A program made the position numbers and the translations under genes. A DNA stretch of 64,000 nt, taken from assembly GCF_030684315.1 (NCBI RefSeq), contig NC_081379.1, positions 42,406,381 through 42,470,380 on the forward strand, written 5' to 3'. Origin of the DNA: Stegostoma tigrinum. Taxonomy: Eukaryota. Positions 17,703 to 36,586 of this stretch are shown piece after piece. The notes under the pieces are model-generated. The model saw nothing but the letters and a program-made list of their open reading frames with translations. It did no database searches and had not been told where the DNA came from. Each line of letters opens with the position of its first letter. Position 1 is the stretch's first letter.

Positions 17703-18279
17703 AGAAAATCCCAGTTTCAGGTTACACAGGAAAAATGTGTAGCTTATAAAAATTCACTTTTAAAAAATTTCAAAAACATACCTCATTCATTAAAATATCT
17801 TTGTGGGTATACACCTTGTCACAAGTGCAGATCGATTCTGTATGGTTGCATATCAAATAAACAAAACAAAAACATTAGACTTTGACTTTATCCAACTCTC
17901 TTATATATATAGTACCAATATTTACATAAATTTGAGACACTGGGAGAGTCCAATAACTGAAAAGGCCCCCATTTACCATTAGCAGGAAGACCTTGATCCT
18001 TCCCCATGGCTGCTCAAAAGGGGTTGACCTCAACTGAGTGTTGCAGAGTGGGCAGTTGAGCTGTTTAATTTCTTTTTGTCAGTAGAGACAAGGATGAGCG
18101 TGGTGCATTGCAACCATTTTTTCCTCATACCAGTCCGTGTGACTGGCAATGCCCTGAATAATTTTTCCGTTATTTTAAAATGTGGAGTAATTGTTAGGAG
18201 TTAGCAAATACGCAATTGAAGAATTAAGCTCACTTGAGGTGATTCATCAGCTGTATTTACTGAGTTTCTTCAAGGTGGA

Positions 18280-18890
18280 GTTGTTGGTAAACAGGATGGT
18301 GAAGAAGGCATTTGAAATGCTTGCCTTCATTGTTCAGTGAATTGTGTATAGAAGTTGGGAAGTTGCAGCTGTACAGAACATTGGTTAGGTCACATTTGGA
18401 ATATTGCATTCAATTCTAGCCTCCCTGCTAGAGGAAAGATGGCATGAAACTTGAAAGAGTTCAGAAAAGATTTACAACATTGTTGCCAGGTATGGAGGGT
18501 TTGAGCTATAGGGAGAGGCTGAACCGGGGCTACTGAGGCTATTTTCCCTGGAATTTCGGAGGCTGAGGGGTGACTTCATAAAATCATGCAGGGCACGGAT
18601 ATGATGAATAGCCAAGATATTTTCGCCAGGTTAGGGAAGTCCCAAACTAGAAGACAAGGATTTAAGGTGAGAGGGGAAAGATTTAAAAGGGGCCTAAGGG
18701 GCAACTTTTTCACACAAAGGGCAGTGGGTGAATGGAATGAGCTTCCAGAGGAGGTTGTGGAGGCTGGTACAATTACAAGGCATCTGGATGAGTACATAAA
18801 TAGGAAGGGTTTTGAGGGATATGGGCCAAATGCATAGATGAGTTGGATTGAAGGGTCTGTGACCATGCTGTACAGCTCCATGACTCTATC
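18280..18890 (+). mobile_element. CR1-group LINE 3' fragment
   Basis: FKVRGERFKRGLRGNFFTQRAVGEWNELPEEVVEAG. Confidence 0.85.
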
Positions 18891-19621
18891 ACGCATATTA
18901 ATAAAGAGGTTTATGGGTGCCATTAACAGGTGTAAAGTGAACTTTGTGTTTGCAGGATTCGTGAGAATTTGATGAAGAGCGGCATACACATACATCTTGA
19001 TTTTGTTGTTAGACAAGATAGTGCATGGGGAAATCTGTTCGAAACATCCAGTGTTATGAATTGTTCTGAGATTTGAAGAGGAATGAATGAAATTAATCAA
19101 ATAACAAAGAAACCTGTCTCACCACAGACTGTCCACCATCAACAAGGCACAAGTCAGAATTGTGATAGAATGCTCCCCATTTGGCTGATTGAGCACAGGG
19201 CCAATAACGCACAAGAAGTTGATACCATCCACGACAAACACCCCACTTAATTGTCAACACATCCACTAGCATTTAAACTTTTCACCACGGTGCATTAGCT
19301 GCATGTGCCATCTACAAGATTCACTACAGCAGCTCGTCATGTTTCCTTCAACAGCACTTTCCAGACCCACAGCCTCTACCACTTTGAAGGACAAGCACAG
19401 GGAGTAGGGAGCACCAGCAGCATGTTCCCCTCCCCACCATCCCTCACTATACCTTGGCCAAAATTCCAGAATGTCCTGTCAATTTGGATCTAAACCAGTC
19501 AGTGAGACAGAAACCAACACTGCTTTCTTTCTAGATAGAGTTTAATAATAATTCATTTTCAACAGTAATAGAAGCAACTCCTTCTGCACATCAGCCTCAT
19601 CTGTTTACCCTGTATAGCTAC

Positions 19622-21072
19622 AGTTATGGATCAGGCCAAAACCCCTCAAAATGTGTTAAGAAGATAGCCTAGACCCTCACTATTTCTTATTTTAAAGATT
19701 AGTGTAAGTTGTTGCAATCCAGATGCAATTTGATTGGTCAATGTTTGATTTTACACTACAGTTAAAATACAGGCAAAATAAAAGTTAAAGAAAAAAATGA
19801 CTTAAATGTACATCCGATAAACGGTTCCTTGGCAAAGGCAAATTGAGCAAAGTAGATTGTCTCACATGCAATTTTAGTAGCAGGAAGAGATCCCTAGCTT
19901 TTAGCTGTATCAGAGCGAGGAATAACATCAACTTGAAGGCCACAGCAACTGCAGAAAACTAAAACTAAAAATCCTGGTTCTGCGGGTGCTCGATCCTACC
20001 CATTCAGCCTGCCTCTATTGTTTCAACTTTTTAAAAAACCCAAGGTCTCACAAGCTGTTTACTTTATTGGCTTTGAGCTGACTGCTTGGGACCTCTGTTT
20101 TAACCTTTCCTCATTAAGAAAGGGCAAAATACATCTATTAAAGCCATGGTATAATCACAGCTCTCTGTTATAAAAAATGAACCATCAATATAGAAAGATG
20201 ACTTCATTTTCAAAAACCTTTAGACCTACACTGTTGGTACACTATAATACATATACATTACATTGACCCTAAGCTTGCAAATGTTCACTATTGAGGTCCA
20301 TTTCAGTCCAATTTTCCTGCCACTGAGCACTGCCATTTTCATTCATCAAAGTCGTGATAACACATCAGCAATTACATTCTCCCATCCTGCCACATGTATG
20401 ATTTTGAAATGAATAGCTGCAATAATAAACTCCACATAAATGGTCCATATAAAATTTTATCCTTAGATTTTTCCAAAAACTTTAATGAGTTATGATCAGT
20501 ATATACAATTGTCTCAGACACAGTAGTGGCAATAGAAATGTTAACATGTTGCAACACCAACACTAAACTCAAGGTCACTTCCTAATTATGGAATATTTCT
20601 ATTGATAATTATTCAATTTTCTGGAAAAGTACGCAAGTTGGTATGAATTTCTGATAAGTTCCAGGAATCATAGTACTTCCCTCTTTGTTGATGGTATGGG
20701 AAACTCCCCAATAACCTTTGTTTTTTACATCCCATGGAGCCATTTGCCTTTATCCAATGACATGGTCCAGGAACATGAATTGGTCTTTTGTGAATTCACT
20801 CCTAGTGGGTTTATCACCAAGCCTACCTCCTGAAGTTGATCAAAGATTCTAATCGATGCCTCAAATGTTCCTTCCAAATTTGACAAAAGAGCAGGAGATT
20901 GTTGATGTACACTACATAATTGAGTAATCCCAAAATGACTTTATTGGTTAACCTTTGAAGTGTGGGTGGCGCATTTTTCATTTCAAATAGCATGACTTTA
21001 AACTGGTACAGTCCATTCAGTGTCACGAAAGCCAAAATTTCCTTTGCTGTTTTGGATAAAGGTACCTGATGG
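19622..21072 (-). mobile_element. Ty3/gypsy relic: RT-RNase H plus LTR-like 3' region
   Basis: Minus-strand AFVTLNGLYQFKVMLFEMKNAPPTLQRL...VYINNLL (RT) and VYTDHNSLKFL (RNase H). LTR-like sequence at ~19625-20160. Confidence 0.8.
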
Positions 21073-22290
21073 TACAGAGTTTCTGTTATAATGCAATAGA
21101 TGTGTTCCTGTGAAACAATGAGTTACAGCAAATTATGCTATAGAAACAATGAGACCTGTGGGAAAAGATAGGTTAGGGACATACCAACAAAAAAAACTCA
21201 AAATAACTCAAAAATCACTCCAAAGCTTAACACAAAGGATAGCATGGTTTTAAAAACTTTTAATCCACATGTTGTAATGAAATAACAGCAAATTTATCAT
21301 CTTAGCTTGAAAAATGGTCAAGATGATTTGATGGAAGAGGACATTTTGAGGTTGCTCTGTTGTTAATGCAGGGGCTGAGAGTTATTTTCATCATCATCAT
21401 CACCTTCAGGTGTAGTTTTGTTTGCTAGGTTAGGGTGAACGCTTCATCCAAACCGCACACAAGCAGTTCTGACTGACATCACCCAGGCCTCCACGATAAT
21501 GTCAATTGCTTTCTTGATGTTAAAGTTCTTCCAAAATTGAAGAACACTGTCCTTATCCCCTTCAGTGGCTGCAATCAGCACCTTAAATGTGAGCCTTAAA
21601 TAATAAGCTTCAAAAGCTGCTATTACACCCTGGTCCGTTGGTTGAGGGAGAGCGGTTGTGTTTGGGGGTAGAAATAGCACTTCAAAGTTTTCAGAAATCT
21701 CACCTTGTAGCCTGAGGATGGCTTGGCACATTATCCAGAATGAGGAGAATCTTGAAATCCACATTTTTTTCCTGCAATAGTTTCTAAAACCTTCCAAAAC
21801 ATCAACAATGAGGTTAGAAAAGATTTGCCCTGTCATCCAACCTCTTTTGCTTGACCTAAAGTTGGTGTCTAGAGTAGACTTCAGGCAACCTTACAAGGCT
21901 CACGGGTTGGCAGAGTGGTACACCATCAAAGGGTTAAACTTTAAGTCTCCGCTGGCATTAGTGCCCAGCAACACAGTCATACAATCCTTTGCCACCTTAA
22001 AGCCTGGAGCATGTGTTTCATTCATAGAAATGCAGTTTTTGGCTGGCAGGTGTAAACCTGTCTCATGCAAATTGAAAATTTGATCTAAGTTGTAGCCATT
22101 TTTGTCCATTTTTTTTTTACTATGGTAGGAAATGCCATCACATACTCCTTGCCTGCAGTAGCAGTTTCATTACATAACTCTACTCTATGAAATGCACAGT
22201 GGTTCTTAAAACCAGCAAACCAGCCACTGCTAGCTCAAAAGACAGGCACATCTGCAGAACTTTTGCTTGCTTAGCTAGAAAGTGCCAGAT
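21073..22290 (-). mobile_element. Tigger/pogo-type DNA transposon fragment (DDE transposase)
   Basis: IFNLHETGL, MTVLLGTNASGDLK, FLPPNTTALPQPTDQGVIAAFEAYY. One TIR-like end at TA-cag (21073); the other end is truncated. Confidence 0.85.
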
Positions 22291-24310
22291 CTCTTTAAAG
22301 AATTTACTTGCATGGGTAAGGTTTACTCATGAATACCAGGAGGATTAGGTAAAGGAATGAAGCCTTTAAGAGATATGGGAGCAAGTGAGTCTTTGATGGT
22401 GAGAGATGAGGAGATAATGTAATTCAGAAGGAGAATTGACAGAAAAAAGAGATACTATGTGGAATGCATGGTGAGAATAGCAGTATTCCATTATATACAT
22501 TTTAAAAAAGTGAGGTTGGAGAGTCTGGTGAAACGTGTTGAAGTGGTGGTGGGAGTAACAGAGAAATTTTCAGTTCCAGGAATATGGATTATCTTTGGTA
22601 AGAATATAGCTGGAGTGATGCCTACTGTGGTTAAAAAGCCAATGGAAAATCAGGCAACTAGGGTTTTACAGGAAGTATATCCTGGGATTTTTCCTGACTG
22701 TATGGCAGCAAAGTCACAAAACCATAGATAGACACTGGAGGAGAAATTGAAGAAATTAAAGAAGGCGAAGTTCAGTAATCAGAAACTATGCTTCATGAAA
22801 TGGTTGACAAAAAAAAACAACAGGTTGCAAAGTAGACATTTTCAGTTCAGAGAAATTATCTGAATTACAACAGATAGATGAAAAATTAAAACAATTATAT
22901 CAAAAAGCATACACAGAAGAATCTAGGTGTATCCCAGAATGTTACTATTTTAAAACTGAAGTCTTGATGAAGAACAGGAGACCATCATATACTCAGGCAG
23001 GAGACAAATGGTCAGAAATCATTTGGGAGTAAGGAAAACACAAGCCAAAATACAAAAACATTTTCATCGGCCTGGACTGTGTAAGGATGTAGTTGACTTT
23101 TGCTGGACATTTCATACGTGTCGGGTTATTGGAAAATCTCAGGCGGTGATAAAACTAACACACTTGATAACCATTCGTGCATTTCAGGATCCTTCTACAA
23201 GAGTATTAAATGATTGTGCAGAATCCTTAAAACTAGAAGTCGGAGTAAATATCTGTTGACCAGAATGGATGCATCTACTAAATTTCCAGAGGTCATTCCA
23301 TTATAAATATCACAACTAAAAGGTGTGTAGAACAATTACTCAATCTTTTTTTTTACTAGACACAGTCTGCCCACAGAAATACAATTGGATCAAGCATCAA
23401 ATTTTACATCAAAATTATTCAAGGATTTTATGAATATCTTAGGCATAAAACAATTCAAATCTATTGAACATCATCCAGAATTGCAGGGAACATTAGAACA
23501 GTGACATTAAACTTCAAAGACCAAGCTGAGGACACATAGACAAAACTACCCAGAAGATTGGCATAAAAGAATTCCATTTGTACTTTTTCAAATTAAAGAT
23601 GAACCTAATTAATCAACTGAGTTCAGTCCATTTTAATTAGTTTTTGGGCATGAGATGAAAGGACCTCAGAAATGAATTAAGGAGAAATTGGTGACCCAGA
23701 GTTCAGAGACCACATGTTTGGGCTATGTGTCAAATCTTAGGGAAAGATTAAGTAGAGCAGGTGAGTTGACAAAACAGCATTTGAAAGTAGTACAGCATGT
23801 GATAAAATTGAAAGCAGACAGCAATTTTTAAAAAAAATTTATCATTGGTGATAAGGTAGTGATATTACTACTGGCTATATGTGAACCTATAAAGGCAAAG
23901 TTTGGTGGGCCTTATCAAATCAAAAGGATATTGAGTGAGGTGAATTATTTGATAAGAACGCCAGATGGAAAGATGTATCACAGAGTGTGGCATTCTGAAA
24001 TATTCAAAACGTATTTTGCTAGGAGTGGAAAGCGAAAGGAGAGTGGATCACTGGTTACAACACAGTGAAGAACCAAATTCAGAGGATTTTGCATTGGACA
24101 TTCCTAAAATTAAATTGTTCAATGAGGGTGTTCTTAAAAATTAGAACAAATTATTGTTGCCTTCTAGAAGAAAATTGAAATGACCTGAAAGAGTTATTAC
24201 AATCACTTTGGATGATATGTAGGAATAAACTGGGAAGTACTAATCTGATTATGCATGATGTAGGCATAGGAAAGGCTGCTCCAATTAAGCAACATCTTTA
24301 CAGACTTAAA
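22290..24310 (+). mobile_element. Gmr1-type Ty3/gypsy relic (protease - integrase - start of RT)
   Basis: LRDMGAS (protease), NHLGVRKT...CWTFHTC (IN zinc finger), KFGGPYQI, then APIKQHLYRL (RT start): integrase lies upstream of RT. Confidence 0.8.
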
Positions 24311-25785
24311 GATAGTAGGAACTGCAAATGCTGGAGAATCTGAGATAACAAGGTGTGGAGCTGGATGAACACAGCAGGCCAAGCAGCATCAGAGGAGCAG
24401 GAAGGCTGATGTTTTGGTCAGAAGTGGGGGAGGGAAAGGGGGTTCTGAAATAAATAGGGAGAGAGGGGGAGGCAGATGGAAGATGGGTAGAGAAGAAGAT
24501 AGGTGGAGATGAGGCAAACGGGTCAAAGAGGCGGGATAGAGCCAGTAAAGGTTAGTGTAGGAGAGATAATGGGAACTGCAGATGCTGGAAAATCCAAGAT
24601 AATAAAGTGTGAAGCTGGATGAACACAGCAGGCCAAGCAGCATCTCAGGAGCACAAAAGCTGATGTTTCGGGCCTAGACCCTTCATCAGAGCTGTTAGTG
24701 TAGGTAGGGATTTAGGGAGGGGCTAGGCCAGTCCAGGGAGGATGGACAGCTCAAGGGGACAGGATGAACCTGGTAGGTTGGAGATGGGGGTGGAGCTTGA
24801 GGTGAGAGGAGCAGCTAGGTGGGAGGAAGGACAGGTTAATGAGGCAGGTGCGAGCTGAACTAGATTTGGAATGCGGTAGGGGGAGGGGAGATTTTGAAGC
24901 TGGTGAAGTCCACATTGATACAATTGGGCTGCAGGGTTCCCAAGCGAAATATGAATTACTGCTCCTGCAACCTTCGGGTGGCATCATTGTGGCACTGCAG
25001 GCCCAGGATGGACATGTTGTCTAAGGAATGGGAGGGGGAGTTGAAATGGTTCGCCATTGGGAGGTGCAGTTGTTTAACGTGAACTGAGCGTAGGTGTTCT
25101 GCAAAGTGGTCCCAAGCCTCTGCTTGATTTCCCTGATGCACAGGAGGCTACAACGGGAACAGCGGTGCAGGTAAACATCTGCTTGATGTGGAAAGTCTTC
25201 TTGGGGCCTGGGATGGGGGTGAGGGAGGAGGTGTAGGGGCAAGTGTAGCACTTCCTGCAGTTGCAGGGGAAAGTGCCAGGTGTGGTGGGGCTGGAGGAGA
25301 GTGTGGAGAGGATAAGAGAGTCGCAGAGAGAGTGGTCCCTCCGGGAAGCAGAGAAGGGTGGGGAGGTAAAAATGTCTTTGGTGGTGGGGTCAGATTGTGT
25401 CGGAGGATCATGCGTTGAATCCCGAGGTTGGCGAGGTGGTACGTGAAGATGAGAGGGATTCTGTTTTGGTTGTTATTGCAATGAGGGGGTGTGAGGGATG
25501 AGTTGTGGGAGACATGGTCGAGGGCATTCTTGACCACTGAGGGAGGAATTTGCGGTCTTGAAAAACAAGAACATCTGAAATGTACGGGAATGGAATGCCT
25601 CATCCTAGGAGCAGATGTGGTGGATAGTCTAGATATTCTAGACACCTCCTCCCACCCACCTTCCTGCAAGAATGCCATCCCCTATTCCCAATTCCTTTGC
25701 CTCCACTGCATTTGCTCCCAGGATGAGGCATTCCACTCCCGAACAACTCAGATGTCCTCTTTTTTCAAGGACTGCAACCAAATGT
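24310..25785 (-). mobile_element. Penelope-like element 3' part with nested short pLTR and a 5' inversion
   Basis: GIY-YIG remnants (DHFAEHLRSV). Nested pLTR 24562-24693 with 11-bp TSD gttagtgtagg. A + strand RT piece lies at ~25635-25780. Confidence 0.85.
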
Positions 25786-25789
25786 GGTT

Positions 25790-26700
25790 GTTGGATATCT
25801 ATCATCTCAGCTCCAGTCTATCACTACAGGAATTCCTCAGGGTAGTGTTTTGGCCTCTAGAAACTTCATCAGTAACCTTCTTTCCATCACAGGCTGGAAA
25901 TTGGAACAATTGAAAAATTGTTCAGCACTGCTCATGACTGCCTATAACTGAAGCAGTCCAAGTCTACATGTGGTAAGACTTTGGGCAATATCTAGACTTA
26001 AGTGGCAAGTAACATTTGCACCATAGACATGCCAGGCAATGACCAATTTTTAACTAGAGAAAATCTAACCACTGCCCCTTCACATTTGATGGCATGGATA
26101 TTGCTAAACCTTCTACTGTCATCAACCTAGTTTTTACTAGTGAATCATAAAGTGAATTGGACCAACCATATAAATGCTTTGGCTCCAGGAGCTGGATGGA
26201 GTAACTGAGTGCTGCAAGTAACTCCATTCTTTTACCCCCGATGCCTGTCTGCCATCGACAAGGCAGGACTGTGATGGACTACATTTACTTGTATTACAGC
26301 CCCAACAAAAATCAAGAAACATCTCGGACAAAGCAGCCAGCTAGATTGGCAGCCCAAACGCCACCTTCAAATTTCATCCCCTTCACCACTGATGCACATG
26401 GTAGCTCCTTTGACAGCACTTTTCAAACATACAAGCTCTACCACCTGGAAGGACAGGGGCAGCAGATACATAGGAAAACCAGTACCTGCCAGTTTGATTC
26501 CAAGACATGCACCATTTTGATGATATCGCCATTCCTTCACTGTCATTGTGTCAAAATACTGGAAATCCTTTCCTAGCAGCACTATGGGTTTACCTATATT
26601 CGAAGGATTGGAGCAGTGGAAAAAAAGTAGCTCGCTACCACCTTCTCCAGGGCAATAGGGATGGACAATAAATACTGGTCTAGCCAGTGACACATCCTAT
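25790..26700 (+). mobile_element. LINE 3' fragment (CR1/L2 group; tail shared with the Deu-type SINE)
   Basis: Decayed RT C-terminus and 3' tail gggcaatagggatggacaataaatactggtctagccagtg. Related pieces at ~19100-19470 (+), ~41850-42680 (-) and ~43100-43500 (-). Confidence 0.6.
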
Positions 26701-27289
26701 GAATGACTCAAAAAAATTTCAGATTAGAAATCCATCAATTTCAGCACCCTGAAAAAAATTATACTCAAAATCTACACCGAATATCTTATTTCCTAATTGA
26801 GATTGTCAAGGACACATTTTTTTCAATGCACTCATAAGATGTGTCCCAAACATAGACATTCAAAGATTGAATGATGAGTGAAAGATATAGTATTTCTTGG
26901 TTGGGTCTGTCTTGCTGCAACCTTCCTCTATTCAAATATGAGCAGACCCAGTAATGCTGCACTTCTATCATAAAGAGAAACTCCAAAGCACTTTCATGGC
27001 ACATGTCGATGGCGTTTAATGGGAGGATTCTGTGGAATTTGAACAACTTGCTACAGGTAAGATCAAAAAGAAATTTAAAATGTGGAGTCGTGGTTTCAGA
27101 GTCTTTAATAATATAGGCCTTAGAAATTAAACAAAAAAAATGAATCTTGAATCAACAATCATATATCTAGAAAATGTTAGTCATTTCCTAATAGTTCAGG
27201 CTTGGATGTAACAAACTATTTGGGCTATGATTTTCATTCCTATCAACTCTGCACAGGTGGGAGAAAACAATTTTCAACCCTTGGGCAGT

Positions 27290-27770
27290 TCCAAGGAGGT
27301 TTATAAGATTAATTCCAGAGTTGAAAGGCTTGTCTTGTGAGGACAGTCTGAGCCGTTTAGGTTAGGCCTATATTCTTTAGTTTTTATGGGCATGAGCGAT
27401 CAAATAATGATATGTAAAATGTTAAAAGGGTTTGACAAATTAGAAGTTTCCCCTGGTGAAGCACTTTGGAACAGAGGTCATAGTTTTAGGTTAAAGGGTA
27501 AGAAGATTTAAAACAGAGATGAGCAGGAGTAACTTCTGTCAAAGAATCGTGAATCTGCGAAATTCACTGCCCGAGCGCCTGGTGGATGCGGGATAGCGAG
27601 TAAGTTCAAGAAGGAAACAGATAGACAGATGTGTAATTAATAAGGATTGGAAGTGTTATGGGGAGCGGTCACGAAGGTGGATTTGAGGTCGAGGCGAGAT
27701 CAGCCAAGATCGTATTAAATGACGGAGCAGGTCCTTGGGATTGAATTGCCCACTCCTGCTCCTAGTTCTA
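27290..27770 (+). mobile_element. CR1-group LINE 3' fragment upstream of the receptor gene
   Basis: gaatcgtgaatctgcgaaattcactgccc and CR1 3' UTR (actcctgctcctagttct). Confidence 0.7.
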
Positions 27771-29600
27771 TATCAATAGAAGAAAGGGACTCTTATGGTG
27801 CAGTGACAGTGTTCTTACCTCTGGGCTAGGAGGCCCAAATTCCAGGCGTGTGTGATAGCATCCCCGCCACAGGCTGGCTTGGGTTTTGTTTTTAATAACA
27901 AGAACCCAGGGCTAAACGTGAACAGCAAAGAGGTGGGAGGAGACGGTGTTTTTAGTTGTTTCCGCAGACTGAAGTCGCCGGTGCTATTTGCGGCGGCGAC
28001 AGCTTGCCTGAGATCTCTGAGATGCTGTGAACTTTTTAACCCACGCGCAGCTGGCTACGCTCAGATTCCGCACGCCCTGCATCGGCGCCCAGCCCCGCTA
28101 CCACGATGAGGAGGAGGGACCTAGTGCCTCTGCTGTCCCCAGTGAGCCTTCATACCATCGTCGTCCGGTAGCGCCTTGTTAACATGAACCTCCTGGCATT
28201 GTTAGGGATATGTATGTTCAATTACTACCCAGGTTGGGCTCTCGGGGCTGCTGAAGGGGTTCGGGTTGAACAGACTCCAAGAACTCTCCTGGTGACTGAA
28301 GGAGGGACGGCGATCCTGACCTGTTACTATTTCCCTGAAGGAATTGAGGACTATGCAATCAATTGGTTTAATCAACCAGACAACCGAAGTCATCAGGACG
28401 AAGCAATTGTTTATTTGGACAGGCTCAAGGCAAATGATTCAATCCGACTGGTCCATACATTAGATCGGGAACGAAATATATCCCAGTTATCAATTAGCGA
28501 GCTTCAGCTCGCAGACAGCGGCACGTATTATTGTGAATTGCTGCCTTTGAGTCAACCGTCTCTGAAAGAGTTGCGGGGGAATGGAAGCAGGTTGACAGTG
28601 ACGGGTAAGTCCCATTGTTTGAAAGTGTAACAGCGTTAGCAGCATCGCACCCAATCACTGTCTCCATGGCCACGCGTCTATTTGCGCTGTGAGCCAGCGA
28701 TGAGGGGATACTGTAAGTCACACACCCTCACGCACAGCGAGCGAATCGTCGGTATTGCTGCGATTTTTGTTGGGAAGTTGTAAACGGCAGGGAATTTCAG
28801 CAAATCGCCAATTCCTGACGGCACTTGTCACTCGGGCAAAGTGACGGTGGGAACTCGGTAGCGTTTGAAGCTTTGGTCCAAGCATGAGGCACGGCCATTG
28901 GGGGGAGGATTAAACCGGGAGTAGATGTCGGCAACATGCAACTGGTTTCAGTGCATCAGTGTGCCCAAACCAGAAAACGATTTCACTCCGGCGCAGTCAG
29001 TAACTGGCACCGGGGTGCGGTTAGCGTGTTAGCGGCATTTGAAGCGAAGATTATTTCCTGATCATAATTACGGCGCAGTTCAATATATCCAGGTCGAATT
29101 GTAAATAGTCAGAGAACCGGGTTTCTCAGCTATCATTCTGTCTTCCCCCATGAATTCACAACGAGGATTTGCACCATCTCCCGCTGCCCATTTGAGAACA
29201 TAAAGACCGATGGTTGTGAATTGCATTCAATGCTCGGCGTGTGTTATTGAACGTTTATAATCGACATTAACATATCAGTATGCGTCAGGTGATGTCCTGA
29301 CCTGCGAATATTGAAACATTCACTTGCAAATATATAGCGGGCAGCAAGCAGATGTGTAATTAATCCCGAAATCTGTTGCCTTTCCCCGAATGTTAGGTTT
29401 TACACGCGGGGTGGGGTTGGGGGGGGGGGCTGGTGACGACGCTCGCTGCTAGCTGCCGCATCTTCTTTTTGACACATGGGGGAAAGAAAATCGGAAAATA
29501 AAACCGAACACGATGAAAATTCTGACTAAATCATTCCGCAGAAATCCTGACTGTCTCCTTGATTTCCAGCGCTAGGGACGAACAGTCTGCAGAAGTCTCA
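27540..29600. promoter_or_regulatory. CpG island over the 5' end of the IgSF receptor gene
   Basis: Visibly dense CG dinucleotides (e.g. cggcggcgac, ccacgcgcag, atcggcgccc) compared with the CpG-depleted flanks; judged by eye, not computed. Confidence 0.7.
28184..28604 (+). CDS. Exon 1 (signal peptide + VJ-type Ig V-set domain) of a non-rearranging IgSF receptor
   Basis: ORF MNLLALLGIC...VEQTP..LTC..INWF..LSISELQLADSGTYYC..GNGSRLTVT has the B-strand Cys, C-strand Trp, DxGxYYC and a J-like GxG-x-L-x-V G strand in one exon. It ends at a phase-1 donor G|GTAAGT (28605). Four N-glycosylation sequons: NRS, NDS, NIS, NGS. Confidence 0.93.
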
Positions 29601-29964
29601 CGTTTTTAGATAAAAACAACATAACGCCCAATCAGGATGATCAATGGTAAAGTCTCTGGGAATTCATCCAGCGGCTGTGTTCGACGCAATTTTATCTTTT
29701 TTTTTCTTGTTTTTAATTTGAAATGAAAGAACACGTTTCCCAAAGCAAGCCAAAGGGGACCTTTTTCACTGCTGCGCTTAACAAATATAATTAAGGGTTG
29801 TTACTTGAGGGGAACGCACGAAACATAAATATACGTCCTGGGGTCAGCTCACAGACGGGCGGTACAATGACAATAATTACTTTTGTTTGGTTTTAATTAA
29901 AATCATTTTAGTTAAATTGTCCGGCACAGATTTTCACTTTACTTTTATGTAACTCTCTTTTAAG

Positions 29965-30066
29965 AACGCGATCAATACAAAAATCCGTTCCTTTACCAAT
30001 TGCTGTGCATACCGCTGATTTTATGCGTTATCTTCCTCGCTGTAGTATTCAACAAGAAAATGAAAC
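29965..30066 (+). CDS. Exon 2 (short stalk + transmembrane segment) of the IgSF receptor
   Basis: Acceptor ctctcttttaag| and donor C|GTGAGT. Phase 1-1, 102 nt. Reads (E)RDQYKNPFLYQLLCIPLILCVIFLAVVFNKKMK in frame with exon 1: a hydrophobic stretch followed by a basic stop-transfer KKMK. Confidence 0.88.
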
Positions 30067-31259
30067 GTGAGTACTATACTTTATTTGGAAATGTTAGATG
30101 CTTATCACTTACTTTTCTCATTAATACAAAATATTGCCACGATTTAATATTCCAATGTGGCAGGTTAATATTGTGGTATGGCGTTACAAGCGCTTGTCCG
30201 AAAACAGAGGCAGTGTCGTTTCTCTGGTACGTCAAGTGGGATAGAATCATTAAAAAAAATACACTCGAAGGGTATTGAGAAAGCTCTGTTTATATACGGT
30301 AGCTAGAATGTAGCAGCGTTTGTGATTGTCGCACAGTTTTTAAAACATTAATCTCCAGGGAAAATGTTTTGTAACGTATGAAGGTCACATCTTCTACAAA
30401 TCTTGAGATAATTTCAAATTTCTTACTAGACTGCCACCAAAATCGTTTTCCAATCAAGTTTCATCTTATCAATTCGTTGCCATATCCACTATTCAACTGT
30501 AGAGTTGAAGAGGTCTACTGCACGGAAACGGGCCCACCAGTATTCGAGACTGCCCCGGTCAAAAATAACAACCAAACAATTCCAATTCCATTTTCCAGTA
30601 CTTGGCTCATGACCTTGTATATTTTAGCTAATGGTATTCTCCTGTCTACAAAAACGCATCATTATGAATAACATTGGTGAATAACATGAGGTGTCCTCAT
30701 TCTAATGTAACAGTTCCCCATATCCTCAGTCGATGTTCGTCGCCTCTCTACAGCCGAATCCTTTCGTTTTGCTTTCTGGGAATTGTTTGGCTACTGTGCG
30801 GTATACACTGTACTTGTGTCTCGACTCACAATAGAAACCACTTTACATTAATTTTGTATTTGTCCATCGGCTGTTTAGATTTGGTTCGTTTTCTGAATTA
30901 AAAGCTGCTGCGCTCTCCAAAACTCACCACCCTGAGACAAGCCAAGCGTTCTCAACCGTCAGTCTAGCACAGAAAGGTATAGTGCACCGTCTGGCCACAA
31001 CAGTACTGTAGATAGGCTTACTACAGATTCCTTTCCCTGATGATTAAATATCTCTGGATGTAACCTAATGCTCTTTGTCAGTCTGTTCAGTGCTGGAATA
31101 CAATTCACGCTCAAGCACTTTTTACATTGAGTGTACCTGAATGCCCTTTAGTGTGATGCTTCCTCGTTTCATGCCTTTGCAATCGGGATATTTTAATCAT
31201 GTTTAAAACCAAAGCTTGTATCTCCTGGGGCTGTACCTATCACGCTCCAGAATTCTCGC

Positions 31260-31490
31260 TAGGAGCAAATTGCTGTAGATGCTGGAATCGATACTGAAAA
31301 CAACAAATGCTGGAATCCACAGCGGGTCAGGCAGCATCTGTGGCGAGAGAGAGCAGGCTAACGTTTCGAGACTCGAAGGCTCTTCATCAGAGCTTTGTTG
31401 ATGAAGAGATACCTAGACTTGTAAAATTAGCTTGCTCTCCGCACGGGTGCTGCCCAACCCGATGTGATTTCCAGCATTTTTTGTTTCAGT
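31260..31490. mobile_element. Palindromic Penelope pLTR-derived element in intron 2
   Basis: Imperfect inverted arms around ~31395. Hammerhead core intact on the - strand (31360-31390) and degenerate on the + strand (31398-31430). Confidence 0.7.
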
Positions 31491-32233
31491 CCAAAATTGT
31501 CGCTGATAAGATCAGGCCCAATAGTGAGCTACACTTCCCTGTTTTCAATTCCAGATTACATTCTTTTGACTTTGATAGTTCCACTAGTGCTAACGGTGAG
31601 AAATCTCAATTCACTTCATACACAAGTTATGTACATTACTGCGGCTCGGCAGTGTAAGGCGTTTCAACGTTGATTGCAGTGTAGAAGATTCAATGCTATT
31701 ATTGCTTTGTCTCTGACGGGCCCTGTTGGGAATCTTGTTTAACATTTTGCATCGATAAGCCACTCTTTTCATAGGCTACAGAGTACTGTCGCTGGTCCAA
31801 CTAGATTTATACCGCTACCAAAAAAAAGCTGACAGTCTGTTCAGTGGTTTTTCTTATAACTGGTTTGTTTCAACTTTTTTTCATGTTAATGTATCATAAA
31901 TTGCATGGATGCACATACTACCAAAAGACAAATCTAATGTCATCCAGCGTGTGATGTCCTTCAATGAGCTGATGGACCCCAGCAGCTAATTTGCAGTTGA
32001 GTTAGGTTGTTGCGATTCAGATCTTAAAGCAAATATCGCTCCCCGATTCTAGAATAAAACGTGCTTCTGCGCTTTCGGTGTTTAAAAGAGTTTATTTTCG
32101 ATTACGTTGACACTGGTAAATTCTCACGTTGCAGGCCGGTACAGATCTTGGCGGAATAAATGTAATTCAGTTTCAGGCTGTGCATAACACACGGGATTGG
32201 CTTCTAACTACGTTTGGTTGTTTGTCTCTCCAG

Positions 32234-32283
32234 AGAAGGAAGAAGCTGAACACAGCTCCCCGCCGACCGGGACTATCCCAGAG
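32234..32283 (+). CDS. Exon 3 (short cytoplasmic exon) of the IgSF receptor
   Basis: Acceptor tttgtctctccag| and donor GAG|GTAATG. 50 nt, phase 1-0. Reads (Q)KEEAEHSSPPTGTIPE in frame. Confidence 0.78.
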
Positions 32284-32599
32284 GTAATGCACCCGTCACA
32301 GGTTGTGTTTAGTGCAATTAGATCATGTCCCGGCACAATGTACACGTTAGGGTTTATTATGTTGTACAAGTGAAGTCTGCACGATGCATGAAAACGTTTT
32401 TGCTAACATTCTGAAATAATCGCCGATCATTTGTTCCATTCTCCGATATTTAACTTGTTTTTGGAGTTTGATTTGAAAGTTGATACATTTACTGTCAAAA
32501 TCATCTTCAGATTCGATTCCCTACATCTTTTGACTGAAGATTTATCACCGACAAGCATTACCAAGGAGGAAGGTGTTAAATAGTGCTTAAGAATGAGAG

Positions 32600-33110
32600 A
32601 AAATGAGCAGTTTTGTCCGCCTTGTCTAAGAAAACACATTGTTTTGTAGCAGGTAGTACCTAGGAGATTCATGAGGATGGTCCCAGGTATGGAGAGATTG
32701 TCTTATGAGAAAGGTTGAAAAGGTTGGGCCTCTGCTCATTGAGGTTTAGAAGAATGAGAGGTGATCTCATTGAAACATTTGGGATTCTTAAGTAACTTGA
32801 CAAAGTAAACGTCGAGAGAACGTTTCCCTTTACTGGAGAATCTAGGACTAGAGAGCATAGCCTCAGAGTGACGCGGCGCAATTTAAAACTGCGATGAAGA
32901 GAAATTTCTCCTCCCAGAAAGCCGTGGGAGCTGAATTCGCATTTTTAGGGCCGAGATAGATTCTTGATCAATCGAGGAATCGAGGCTTCTGGGGAAAGGG
33001 CAGGAAAGTGGACGTGAGGAGTTTTGGATCAGGTTTGACCCTGATGATTGGCGGAGCAGGCTCGAGGGGCCGAACAGCCTACTTATTTTCCTGCTGTGGT
33101 CTTATGGTCT
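32600..33110 (+). mobile_element. CR1-group LINE 3' fragment in intron 3
   Basis: agaatgagaggtgatctcattgaaaca...ggagaatctaggactagag; tail tggtcttatggtct. Confidence 0.8.
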
Positions 33111-33940
33111 GAAACAAATTGCTAGACGAGATAAAAACGGTAAATAGGGCGTTTGACCACATTTAGGATGAAAGCGATGGCTTTTGGCTTCAGAGATAGC
33201 TTATGGTCCTTTTCAGAACATCGAGACTTCGTGAAGCGCTTCATGCCCAGGTCGGCGGGAGCATGCTGGCACGGTCAGGTGGTCCCTGTCTTTGGGTAAA
33301 GAAACGTGTTGCCATTTGGAAAATAAATGGCTCTAAAAAGCTGAAGATTATTTCGGGAAGGGAAATTAGAGAGCTCTGAGGCAATGATGTCCCGCAGAGG
33401 CTCTGTGGATAGCCAGGCTCTAACCTCGTGTGGAGACCCGCTGACGGACAGTCCAGGACACTGGGCAGCAGAGAGAGTGAGCCTGTGGGTGGAGAGTCGG
33501 CCGTTGGGAAGATAGAGGTCAGGAAGCCTCGCGCGAGTTTTGACGCTGTCATTTGAATGAAATAGAAACAGAAAATAAAATTGCAGAAAATAAGAGGTGA
33601 GTCAGCAAGAGAAAGCGACGGAAATGAGGGCAGAACTTTATGTCTGAAACGGGCAGCGTAACGTTATTGTTGCTGAACTCGTAATCCATGGGCCCGGACC
33701 CAGTCTGGAGACGTGGCTTCACATTCAAACTCAAAATAGAAAAATGGAACTTAAAGGGTATCTCAGTGATGGCGACCATAATAACTATCATCTATAGTTG
33801 TCAAATGGGATCTGGTTGACGGAGGGAAATCTGCCGCCTTTATCCATTCTCGCGTACATGTGACTCCAGCAAAGTATTATTAGCACTTGAATGTCTTCTG
33901 AAACGGCCCAGCACGCCACTGTGTAATATTTAGGTCTCAA

Positions 33941-34031
33941 CAACAAATGCTAGTCTTGCTAGCGAATTCCACATCCCCAGACAGGTTATGACCTGAGATG
34001 TGGAATTCGCTGGTAAGACTCGCATTTGTTG
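33941..34031. repeat. 35-bp inverted repeat (21-nt loop) at the 3' end of a Deu-type SINE
   Basis: caacaaatgctagtcttgctagcgaattccacatc versus the reverse complement of 33997-34031; 3 differences. Confidence 0.85.
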
Positions 34032-34287
34032 CTCGGTTATGATCTGACACACAAAAAAACAATAGTTATGCAATTTATTTAACTCGCTATTATTTCCATT
34101 GTACTATATTTAATTGTAAAATGTTTTCGGCAGTGTGGGCTGAACCCACGTGCCATTATGACTTAAATAACATATCTGCAAAGTTTTTGTGTTTACTGTG
34201 TGAAATAACATTACAAAATTCACTTCAGAGACACATCACCAAGAGGTCCGTACGAAAATAACCATTAATACAGCTGGTTCTCTCTAG

Positions 34288-34452
34288 GACACTTCAAGGC
34301 CAGGTACATCAATATATGCAACCTTGTTTTCTGCAAGAAGTGGAGAAGACCCGCAGGACCTGGAGGTCGGTAATTCTGATCTCCTTGTGGAAAGGAAAGC
34401 GACCAATGTCTCAACAGGTTTAAACAACGATCGTAGATTTCGAATTAAATAG
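34288..34452 (+). CDS. Exon 4 (ITIM-bearing cytoplasmic tail) of the IgSF receptor
   Basis: Acceptor ggttctctctag|, phase 0. Reads DTSRPGTSIYATLFSARSGEDPQDLEVGNSDLLVERKATNVSTGLNNDRRFRIK*. SIYATL (34309-34326) matches the ITIM consensus S/I/V/L-x-Y-x-x-L/V. Total CDS 421+102+50+165=738 nt (245 aa + stop). ATTAAA at 34519. Confidence 0.75.
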   Translation, partial: DTSRPGTSIYATLFSARSGEDPQDLEVGNSDLLVERKATNVSTGLNNDRRFRIK

Positions 34453-36586
34453 AGAATGCTGCCACAATGCAGTTATTCAAAGGGTTTTAGAAAATAATAC
34501 AACGACCAAGATGCGGCAATTAAAAGTAATGAAATATTTATCCAGTGAGCCTACTGAGAGGCATCTTTCGAATTAACATCGTGCGAATGAGCTTAGCGCG
34601 GTCAGTGTGAAGGATGAGTTGTTGCAATTTATCCACACTGATATAATCTCGAAAAGTATCTGGTTCTTTGCTCAAGTTATTCATGTAGCAAAATACGGAA
34701 ATTTAATGCGTTGTCCTACACTCACAGGTGGAGTATTCAACGGTGAACAGACGCAAACCAGAAAGCAAGACAGAAAGCGGACTCGAAGAGCAAATGGTTT
34801 ACACCCCGCTGCAGTTTAAACAGAGTGAAGCTCAGATGCGGTAGAGTGCAGCTTACAGTCCTTGAAAATGTTCTGACCAAACGTTAATGTTGGAAGAAAG
34901 CTACAGATCTAAAATCAGGAAACGCTGACAGCGTTCGGTAGATTACGCAGCTTTCGGGAAGAGAAGAACCTCGTGTGGCAGCATCATTCTTCCTGTCATT
35001 TGGGATATTTTCTAATCACCCTGTTGTCTCAGGTTCTCCAGCATCTGCTGTTCCTTACTATCTCTGAAACTATTTGCTCCTGCTGTGTTTTAGTCATTCT
35101 GCAAACTGATCTTGTAATCAGATGTTTCATGAATCAGATGTATGATGGAAGATGCCGATTCGGACGTATAGTGAGGAAGGAAATAATGGCGGAGGCACTT
35201 GTTTAAACTCATCTGACATAGGTGCTCATGTGCAGTTATAAACGTGAAAGATGCTGTCAGTGGTCCCATGTTGCTGCAGGACAAGCAGTAAAGTATTGAG
35301 GTTCACTGGAAAGCATTCCATTAGAAATCATTGAAATAATGACAGTTTACTGTTATTCTCTCAGTCCCGACTGAGGCTACCGTGAAGGACTCTTTTCAAC
35401 CTCTCTCCTTGCCTGAGGCTTGTTGACACTCATGTTAAACCATCACTAATCGTCCCTCGACAGTAAGAGTGCAGCTCTATAGACTGGTAGCACTGTAGCT
35501 ACCTTACCCTACTTTTCTCACTAGTAGAACTGGTAGTGTAGTAAAATATCAAATTTTTTTTTTGAATTAAGTGTAAGTGGATTTTAACAGCACAGTAGCT
35601 TGATAATTATCTAAAAAGAAAAGCCCACCGAAGCTGCAAAAGCAAGTTTATATATTTTGAATGCCAAACTTCTCCATTTTGTCATGGATCTCCAAATCTT
35701 TTTTTTAAAAAATACTTTTAACAGTTTGTGTGTACTAATTAGATTTTACCAAAGTCCCATGTATCTATCCCGATCATTTGTGTTCGTGTAAGAGCCTGCA
35801 AAAAATAAAAGTTAACGTATTTTCAAAGTCTTTAATTTCTGATTTGCTGTCTGTTGGAATGCTTCAATTTGATTAGCTGTTTAGCCTGTTTGGTGAGACC
35901 ACTGCTGGAAACTTGAGAAGCCTTTAACTTGGCGCTAGATTGAAATCAATGGCAGGAAATGAAAATAAAAACAGAAATTATTCATTTCCACACTCCCCAA
36001 CTCCCCCACCAAAAAGGCTTTTCCTTTCATCGTCAGTGAGAAACAGCGATTCTTCATAAACTAAACAGATTAATGCTGGATAATAATCTCGCGAAGAGTT
36101 TGAAGGCTTCTTTGTTACAGTTCAACCACATGAACACGTAAATTATATAAATTAGCCACCACTTTATCCTTCAGGAGACAAAATTGCTAAGAGCCGGTGA
36201 GAAAGCAAGACAGCTATAGACACCTGAGAATAGAATTAGTCCCCACTATGGTGTAATACTTGTAGGGATAAGCCTCCAATGAATACTTTAGGTCTTAAAG
36301 CAGAAATGAGATGATCAGAATGGGCTCTTTAGGTGAAAGGCTGGTTATGGCAATGTTTAACACAACACTCTACTTCGGTTAAGGAAATGCAAACTACAAT
36401 GGCAGTGATGGTGTGGGAGCTCGTGAACCAGCAAATTGTCACTTTAAATACCTGTTGGCGCTTAATGAAGAGACTGTTCGACACTTTATGCCCAGCCTTT
36501 TAGGATTTCCTTTGCTAAGAGCAGCTCGCAGTTTGAACGTAAACGTGGGGATGAAAATACATTGGAGAATAGCGATTTCACTCTAG

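What the first reader, a model, noticed from the sequence alone, without database searches (positions are those of the whole stretch)
28184..34452. Non-rearranging VJ-type Ig receptor with an ITIM: candidate shark inhibitory checkpoint receptor of the PD-1/CD28H/NKp30 group
Seen in sequence: four exons with canonical splice sites join in frame (phases 1,1,0) into a 245-aa protein: signal peptide, one V domain already carrying the J-like strand (YYC-ELLPLSQPSLKELR-GNGSRLTV), a ~8-aa stalk, an uncharged TM with two Cys, and a tail with the ITIM SIYATL. No RSS heptamer/nonamer or C domain is visible. Established: single-exon VJ domains typify NKp30, CD28/CTLA4, PD-1 and TMIGD2 and are discussed as antigen-receptor precursors. 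Inference: the domain resembles PD-1 (LLVTEG, NW, DSGTY, VTER junction, short phase 1-0 tail exon) and TMIGD2 (VxQxP start, PxLxExxGN). It lacks CD28's MYPPPY, NKp30's TM arginine and PD-1's YGxL-ITIM plus TxYxxI-ITSM pair, so it may be a distinct inhibitory lineage. Only exon 1 and part of exon 2 appear in the ORF track.
Basis: partly seen in the sequence, partly recalled or inferred. Interest (0 to 1): 0.85.

Follow-up and report, generated by a model that had tools for sequence, protein, structure and literature searches.

The report
Undescribed shark CD28-family inhibitory receptor
This single-copy zebra shark gene, with relatives in other sharks, rays and a chimaera, is predicted to encode a membrane protein with one antibody-like domain and up to three tyrosine motifs; it likely acts as a brake on immune cells and may be the shark copy of CD28HL3, a CD28-family member reported missing from cartilaginous fish.

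Summary
The four exons, AG/GT sites and phases 1,1,0 are as stated. The V domain is identical to zebra shark RefSeq XP_048412619.1, 'uncharacterized'. That model adds a fifth exon at 34728-34844 with two more tyrosine motifs, VEYSTV and MVYTPL, conserved in orthologues. Orthologous models occur in 12 species of sharks, rays and a chimaera. They form one supported clade (99/98). It is not PD-1, CD28H, CD28HL1/2, CD28X or CD28/CTLA4: the genome holds separate genes with their motifs, and PD-1's V domain scores lowest of 18. The gene lies after SIRT4-PXN-RPLP0, on the contig that carries the CD28HL3 markers 1.9-4.4 Mb away; the marker block itself has no V domain. Best reading: a likely inhibitory CD28-family receptor, either the chondrichthyan CD28HL3 that Quiniou 2024 did not find (about 0.4) or a separate lineage (about 0.35). 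No RNA run was available, the tree does not resolve its sister group, and bony-fish CD28HL3 could not be aligned. New member of a known kind.

The parts
28184..28604 (+). Exon 1: predicted signal peptide and joined VJ-type V domain in one exon; CDR3-like loop of 14 residues, then GxG
29965..30066 (+). Exon 2: short stalk, uncharged transmembrane helix with two Cys, basic stop-transfer residues
32234..32283 (+). Exon 3: 50-nt tail exon, phase 1 to 0
34288..34365 (+). Exon 4 as in the RefSeq model, with SIYATL.
34728..34844 (+).
27501..35000 (.). CpG-retaining domain over the whole gene (observed/expected 0.55-1.17 against a window median of 0.28)

Best explanation
The gene encodes a predicted single-V-domain membrane receptor, conserved across cartilaginous fish, that likely belongs to the CD28 family and likely inhibits lymphocyte activation. 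Shown: one joined VJ domain with the family's loop geometry (Pro at position 7 and/or 8 after the F-strand Cys, then GxG), a short stalk, an uncharged TM, and a tail with conserved Tyr motifs YAT[LV], Y[SA][TA][VL] and Y[ST]x[LVM]. Inferred mechanism: the V domain binds a ligand on another cell, most likely a B7-family protein. A Src-family kinase would phosphorylate the tail, and two of the motifs would engage the tandem SH2 domains of SHP-2, SHP-2L or SHP-1, damping antigen-receptor signals as PD-1 and BTLA do. With no charged TM residue it would not pair with an ITAM adaptor. Within this reading I put orthology with bony-fish CD28HL3 at about 0.4 and a separate chondrichthyan lineage at about 0.35.
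For: Architecture conserved in 14 models from 12 species; the 10 family rows in the tree form one clade, 99/98; the chimaera protein finds this locus as its best hit, E 3e-19 against 6e-8 next. No charged TM residue in 14 of 14 models. YAT[LV] in 10 of 14, the distal motif in 11 of 14, the middle motif in 10 of those 11. Loop length 14 in 13 of 14 models (13 in the chimaera) and Pro at position 8 in 12 of 14, as in the CD28H/HL/X rows of PMC11599192 table S4. Best-scoring other V domains are an unnamed CD28H-like gene and CD28H/HL2/HL1. The tree puts it beside CD28-family genes, apart from TCR/IgL/SIRP/NITR, at 85/95. For CD28HL3: it is the only CD28H-like member described with an ITIM/ITSM tail and was not found in Chondrichthyes. 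Candidates for its markers PLA2G1B, CIT, TMEM233, PRKAB1 and PATZ1 all lie on this contig, and the 1-Mb marker block holds no competing V domain.
Against: No expression, ligand or phosphatase data. The family split in the tree is under the support bar; AU tests do not reject pairing with IgL (p 0.18), SIRP (0.19), TCR/NITR (0.27), NKp30-like (0.28) or PD-1 (0.06), and an earlier mixture-model tree put the NKp30-like row with it, weakly. The CD28HL3 loop rule YxCxxxxx[IAVL]P is not met: position 6 is N, S, D or T. The gene is 1.9-2.6 Mb outside the marker block, whereas bony-fish blocks span about 60-190 kb, and its direct neighbours RPLP0, PXN and SIRT4 are not listed as markers. A second V-TM gene with two Tyr motifs on contig C58 has a loop closer to bichir CD28HL3. 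No CD28HL3 accession came up among 78 hits (word-limited search). Leader and V share one exon here. In this species the three-motif tail needs a weak donor.
Confidence: 0.75

Rival explanations
1. It is an inhibitory VJ receptor outside the CD28 family, for example derived from the V exon of a neighbouring germline-joined Ig light-chain cluster, or an independent SIRP/NITR-like lineage, that gained a TM and Tyr tail.
For: The next genes downstream are joined-VJ light-chain-like miniclusters with C exons, starting about 30 kb past exon 5. Gene and clusters share CpG retention. PDB sequence hits are antibodies and TCR alpha. Non-shark hits are SIRP-, NITR- and CMRF35-like. AU tests do not reject these pairings.
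Against: Only 21-27% identity to the neighbouring IgL V domains; it lacks their WYxQ and FGxG motifs. Loop length and Pro positions match the CD28 family. Both LG+G4 trees keep it off the IgL/TCR/SIRP side (90/93, 85/95). PDB hits reflect how many antibodies the bank holds.
Confidence: 0.13
2. It is a switch receptor rather than a pure brake: the first motif is of the SLAM type and would bind the adaptor SAP (SH2D1A), which could turn signalling on or block phosphatases, depending on cell type.
For: TIYATV, an exact TIYxx(V/I), in 3 of 10 models with the motif, and TIYATL in 2 more. PMC12151841 states that TIYxx(V/I) with a hydrophobic pY-1 residue binds SH2D1A and that PD-1's motif does not fit. 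An sh2d1a-like gene marks a bamboo shark T-cell subset (PMC11372145 passage).
Against: The Thr is absent in 5 of 10 models, including this species (SIYATL), both rays, the sevengill and the horn shark, so it is not the ancestral state by simple count. The two distal motifs are ITIM-like.
Confidence: 0.07
3. In this species the gene makes mainly a one-motif or weakly signalling product, because the ancestral exon-4 donor no longer keeps frame with exon 5; it would act as a decoy or attenuated receptor.
For: Splicing at 34417, the place orthologues appear to use, shifts exon 5 out of frame; the whale shark model needs 5 more bases than this sequence offers. The in-frame donor at 34365 is weak; ATTAAA lies at 34444 and 34519. 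Two lamniform sharks each have a second model without the Tyr tail.
Against: Exon 5 is intact and 82.5% identical to whale shark; RefSeq models the in-frame form; skipping exon 4 would also keep two motifs.
Confidence: 0.05

Closest known systems
CD28HL3 of bichir, gar, sterlet, cypriniforms and siluriforms (Quiniou et al. 2024, PMC11599192)
   Same: Single V + TM + tail with two or more ITIM-like motifs 27-61 residues apart; 14-residue loop then GxG in most rows; marker genes on the same contig.
   Different: Loop position 6 is polar, not I/A/V/L; three to four Tyr motifs; 1.9 Mb or more from the marker block; reported as not detected in Chondrichthyes. Sequences compared by eye only.
PD-1 (PDCD1), including shark PD-1 (Kondo et al. 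2025, PMC12151841)
   Same: Single V, uncharged TM, several Tyr motifs, a YAT core; nearest named language-model clusters; the chimaera orthologue is auto-named 'PD-1-like'.
   Different: The genome has its own PD-1 on C17, with the shark PD-1 loop and a YATIVF tail exon. This gene has a GxG G strand and loop prolines, a stalk of about 10 aa rather than a long Ser/Thr stalk, no (I/V)(D/E)YG(E/V)L motif, and the YAT motif comes first, not last.
CD28H (TMIGD2), CD28HL1, CD28HL2, CD28X, shark CD28/CTLA4
   Same: Same V-TM-tail plan and loop geometry; best V-domain scores among named genes (41-48 bits).
   Different: Each has a separate gene in this genome. No EIP, PPP, YxNx, YESF or YEDM motif here; identity 23-31% to CD28H/HL1/HL2.
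NKp30 (NCR3)
   Same: Non-rearranging VJ domain, short stalk.
   Different: No charged TM residue; long Tyr tail; a shorter-loop candidate (my label, from recall, untested) lies on C44.
UrIg/UrIg2 and germline-joined shark IgL (Flajnik et al. 2025, PMC12227049)
   Same: Single-exon VJ domain; lies beside antigen-receptor genes.
   Different: No C1 domains, no split leader in the models, inhibitory-type tail; low V identity.

Membership tests
CD28 family (definition of PMC11599192) | Single IgV - TM - cytoplasmic structure | tested here: met
CD28 family (definition of PMC11599192) | Conserved CDR3-region motif (prolines near positions 7-9, often GxG) | tested here: met
   Pro at position 8 in 12 of 14 models, PP at 7-8 in 9 of 14, GxG in 14 of 14; this species has QP
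CD28 family (definition of PMC11599192) | Conserved cytoplasmic Tyr motifs | tested here: met
CD28 family (definition of PMC11599192) | Phylogenetic placement with family members | tested here: inconclusive
   85/95 split; 1 of 9 alternative pairings rejected, and that one is CD28X
CD28 family (definition of PMC11599192) | Binding to a B7-family ligand | not tested
   no ligand identified; no complex job sent
CD28HL3 | Loop motif YxCxxxxx[IAVL]P | tested here: not met
   position 6 is N, S, D or T in 14 of 14 models; this is why it is not filed as CD28HL3
CD28HL3 | Tail [IV]xYxxL ... V[TL]YxxV (ITIM/ITSM pair) | tested here: inconclusive
   ITIM-like motifs present at comparable spacing, letters differ
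CD28HL3 | Synteny with prkab1b, pla2g1b, tmem233 | tested here: inconclusive
   same contig, 1.9-2.6 Mb away; markers identified by Pfam family and co-location only; no V gene in the block
CD28HL3 | Clusters with bony-fish CD28HL3 in a tree | not testable with these tools
   no CD28HL3 protein was returned by a search, so none could be aligned
PD-1 | (I/V)(D/E)YG(E/V)L then (T/V)EYATIx(F/Y); no loop prolines; one-to-one orthology | tested here: not met
   separate PD-1 on C17; motifs absent; lowest V score
CD28H / CD28HL1 / CD28HL2 | EIP loop motif and YxNx or Y[ED]SF tail | tested here: not met
   separate genes found
CD28X | PPP loop, EYEDM tail | tested here: not met
   no PPP or YEDM; separate gene on C6; pairing p-AU 0.036
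NKp30 (NCR3) | Charged TM residue, short tail (recalled) | tested here: not met
   0 of 14 TMs charged
Rearranging or germline-joined antigen receptor | RSS or associated C1 exon; split leader | tested here: not met
   TM exon follows the V exon

The most novel reading that the evidence does not exclude
This is the missing chondrichthyan CD28HL3, or a tenth CD28-family member, kept from chimaeras to rays. Sharks would then carry a second PD-1-like checkpoint that mammals lost, present since the origin of jawed vertebrates, with a three- to four-tyrosine tail whose first motif became a SLAM-type SAP switch in catsharks and mackerel sharks, and with a tail-less partner copy in mackerel sharks.
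Probability: 0.45. Interest if true: 0.62.

Novelty: new member of a known kind. Interest (0 to 1): 0.46.

Why it matters
The 2024 survey of the CD28 family left one member, the ITIM-bearing CD28HL3, without a cartilaginous-fish gene. This gene is the positional candidate found here. If orthologous, the whole family, with two inhibitory receptors, predates the shark/bony-fish split. If not, sharks have an extra checkpoint lineage. It also corrects an annotation trap: the elephant shark orthologue is auto-named PD-1-like but is not PD-1. The gain is for comparative immunology; the mechanism is of a known type.

Tried and rejected
RNA evidence: no RNA holder listed. Two of the four listed runs were laid; they cover introns evenly and show no exon joints, so they are DNA. 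They confirm the exons without indels, with one silent change at 28465. Structure: AlphaFold model of mean pLDDT 52.8 shows a V sandwich, TM helix and disordered tail; Foldseek returned antibodies, VNAR, TCR and PD-1-complex entries at similar E-values, so it does not discriminate. PDB sequence searches were swamped by antibodies and TCR. The top Atlas cluster, si:dkey-52l18.4, could not be identified. GCN1 family search found nothing, nor in controls. A generic DxGxYxC pattern gave 233 matches against 219 in the control and its list stopped before this contig. Separate upstream leader exon: no candidate passed my filter in 18000-28170; a phase-1 GT..AG pair inside the leader (28212-28232) spans 21 nt, too short for an intron, and is not evident in orthologous proteins. 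C34:40.62-42.11 Mb was not fetched, so a V gene there is not excluded. One NITR row was mis-trimmed and dropped. No complex prediction was sent, as no ligand was identified. Earlier-findings look-ups returned nothing.
Full report
OBSERVATION. ATG is at 28184; the introns have GT/AG ends at 28604/29965, 30066/32234 and 32283/34288, phases 1,1,0, and read-through to 34452 gives 245 aa. Exon 1 matches Pfam V-set at E 1.2e-13. One RSS heptamer lies in 27000-36000, in intron 3, without a nonamer. The V domain is 100% identical to Stegostoma tigrinum XP_048412619.1, 'uncharacterized protein LOC125464343'. It is single-copy: the next own-genome match is E 1.3e-6, 31%, and the tail DNA has one match.

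CORRECTION. The RefSeq protein has another C terminus. It uses a fifth exon at 34728-34844, which also matches whale shark (82.5%) and bamboo shark (68%) proteins. Exons 1-3 + 34288-34365 + exon 5 reproduce RefSeq exactly: 255 aa with SIYATL, VEYSTV and MVYTPL. Orthologues run about 19 residues further in exon 4. The matching donor here (34417) would shift exon 5 out of frame; I infer a small loss near that donor in this species, but could not fetch orthologous DNA. With approximate donor frequencies that I recalled, introns 1-3 score 6.5, 3.2 and 3.0, and the exon-4 candidates 1.0, 1.4 and -2.7. No RNA run was listed and the two runs laid are DNA. I did not see what evidence RefSeq used.

FAMILY. 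Searches gave 4 of 291, 11 of 7999 and 78 of 3901 candidates (the last at E up to 10). Cluster look-ups added four members. In all I examined 14 models from 12 species: carpet sharks, catsharks, horn shark, mackerel sharks, sevengill, sawfish, stingray and elephant shark. Scores fall from 162 bits (elephant shark XP_007906700.1, auto-named 'PD-1-like') to 65 bits for the best non-chondrichthyan hit. That elephant shark protein finds this locus first in the genome. Ten family rows form a clade at 99/98. No TM is charged (14 of 14). YAT[LV] is in 10 of 14 models: TIYATV 3, TIYATL 2, S/I-x-YATL 5. The four without it are two tail-less lamniform models, one that skips that exon, and the short chimaera model. 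The distal motif is in 11 of 14 and the middle one in 10 of those 11; a fourth, [IV]VYS, is in 7 of the 10 models with exon 4 and lost in the three carpet sharks. Great white and basking shark each have two gene models.

WHAT IT IS NOT. Using loop motifs from table S4 of PMC11599192, I found separate genes in this genome for PD-1 (C17; loop match, and a tail exon with YATIVF), CD28H (C38), CD28HL2-like and CD28HL1-like (C1), CD28X (C6) and one CD28/CTLA4 (C9). These labels rest on motif match. The NKp30-like label for C44 is recalled and untested. A profile of the family scores 18 other V domains from 60.5 bits (unnamed C58 gene) and 45-48 (CD28H, HL2, HL1, and a C1 gene) down to 21.4 for PD-1. 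Against that, the Atlas lists PD-1, CTLA-4-like and BTLA clusters among the nearest whole proteins (one source of evidence).

TREE. With 24 rows and 114 columns the family sits with CD28-family and NKp30-like rows, apart from TCR, IgL, SIRP and NITR-like rows, at 85/95, under the support bar (five family rows, one TCR row and one mis-trimmed NITR row left out). Of nine pairings, CD28/CTLA4 is already the sister at 74/77, CD28X is rejected at p 0.036 (marginal over nine tests), and seven are not rejected, p 0.06-0.34. A first tree of 20 rows under a mixture model resolved nothing deep. The sister group is unknown.

NEIGHBOURHOOD. The window is G000:C34:42406381-42470380. Upstream lie a SIR2-family gene at 42.15 Mb, paxillin and RPLP0. 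Downstream, from 42.47 Mb, lie joined-VJ light-chain-like exons with C exons. Quiniou et al. give PLA2G1B, CIT, TMEM233, PRKAB1, CCDC60, MSI1, patz1 and lzts1 as CD28HL3 markers and the human interval chr12:119.33-120.34 Mb (text only, figure not held). Family matches for five of the eight (the other three were not searched) are on C34 at 39.79, 40.20, 40.49, 40.54 and 46.86 Mb. That SIRT4, PXN and RPLP0 lie inside that human interval, between CIT and PLA2G1B, is recalled, not from a call. A V-domain profile found nothing better than E 0.63 in 18,804 ORFs of 39.62-40.62 Mb (35,652 N), while 8 of 8 held-out V groups scored E 5e-7 or better. In 42.11-42.67 Mb only this gene and the light-chain exons scored. 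The stretch 40.62-42.11 Mb was not examined.

CD28HL3 OR NOT. The paper says CD28HL3 has an ITIM/ITSM tail and was not detected in Chondrichthyes. Tail type, loop length and chromosome fit. The loop rule does not (polar position 6), the distance is Mb-scale, and the C58 gene has a PxP loop closer to bichir CD28HL3 and a possible tail exon with VLYSAI and EVYSQI 13 kb downstream. I could compare CD28HL3 sequences only by eye. I therefore do not file it as CD28HL3: about 0.4 for orthology, 0.35 for a separate CD28-family lineage.

MECHANISM. Shown: domain plan and motifs. From established knowledge of PD-1, BTLA and other ITIM receptors: phosphorylated tandem motifs recruit SHP-1/SHP-2; sharks have these phosphatases (PMC12151841 abstract and supplement passage). 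Inferred: lymphocyte expression, a B7-type ligand, inhibition. PMC12151841 notes that TIYxx(V/I) binds SH2D1A, which fits three orthologues but not this species.

IN PRINT. Full-text searches found CD28HL3 in one paper; none for six orthologue identifiers, the chimaera accession or the zebrafish CD28HL3 name. The 9 supplements of PMC11599192 and 6 of PMC12151841 did not hold the identifiers or motif tried. The library lacks most subscription papers, so an earlier mention is not excluded. Papers seen: PMC11599192, parts 1-5 of 6, S4 and S7 text, S3 parts 1, 10, 11, 12. PMC12151841, abstract, results part 1 of 2, section 21, passages. PMC12227049, parts 1-3 of 8 and passages. PMC11372145, one passage. 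Others, search listings only.

VERDICT. A real, conserved, already modelled but apparently undescribed gene; likely an inhibitory CD28-family receptor (0.75). New member of a known kind. Interest 0.46; 0.62 if it proves to be shark CD28HL3 or a tenth member.

Noticed in passing
G000:C58:6477126-6492760 (-); L003:1354-1905, L166-L168: A second V-TM gene that matches none of the shark rows of the CD28-family table: loop with ExPxP then GNG, phase-1 acceptor before V, TM exon at about 6.490 Mb, possible tail exon at 6.477 Mb with VLYSAI and EVYSQI. Best-scoring relative of the gene studied; a rival CD28HL3 candidate.
   Followed up: partly
G000:C34:42470654-42566788; L019:5949-6371, L022, L027: Joined-VJ Ig light-chain-like miniclusters begin just past the window: three intact VJ exons, three C exons and one V fragment. 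The nearest one (minus strand) is quite divergent from the other two.
   Followed up: partly
window 27501-35000: CpG is not depleted over the whole gene: 9 of the 10 highest 500-nt bins of the window. Over 564 kb, 24 of 282 2-kb bins exceed 0.65; five cover this gene and many others lie over the light-chain clusters. Suggests germline hypomethylation; unexplained.
   Followed up: partly
window 28184-28250: Leader and V domain are on one exon in this model, unlike the other V exons found here, which begin after a pyrimidine tract. A 21-nt phase-1 GT..AG stretch (28212-28232) sits where a leader intron would be.
   Followed up: partly
P0009/P0084 and P0008/P0012: Great white and basking shark each have two gene models, one with Tyr motifs and one ending after the short tail exon: a possible inhibitory/decoy pair, or truncated models.
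   Followed up: no
G000:C17:51215245 (-), L170: The PD-1 tail exon has DYAAL and YYATIVF motifs, whereas table S4 of PMC11599192 lists no conserved motif for shark PD-1 models; those models may lack this exon.
   Followed up: partly
G000:C11:96.07-96.70 Mb, C60:3.4-8.5 Mb, C44:11.3-11.9 Mb: Clusters of further V or VJ-like exons hit; not identified.
   Followed up: no
window 692-27000 and 36000-64000: The rest of the window is mostly decayed LINE/Penelope-like reverse transcriptase, LTR-type pol and DDE-transposase-like fragments (read from ORF translations, by recall); no other host gene was seen.
   Followed up: no
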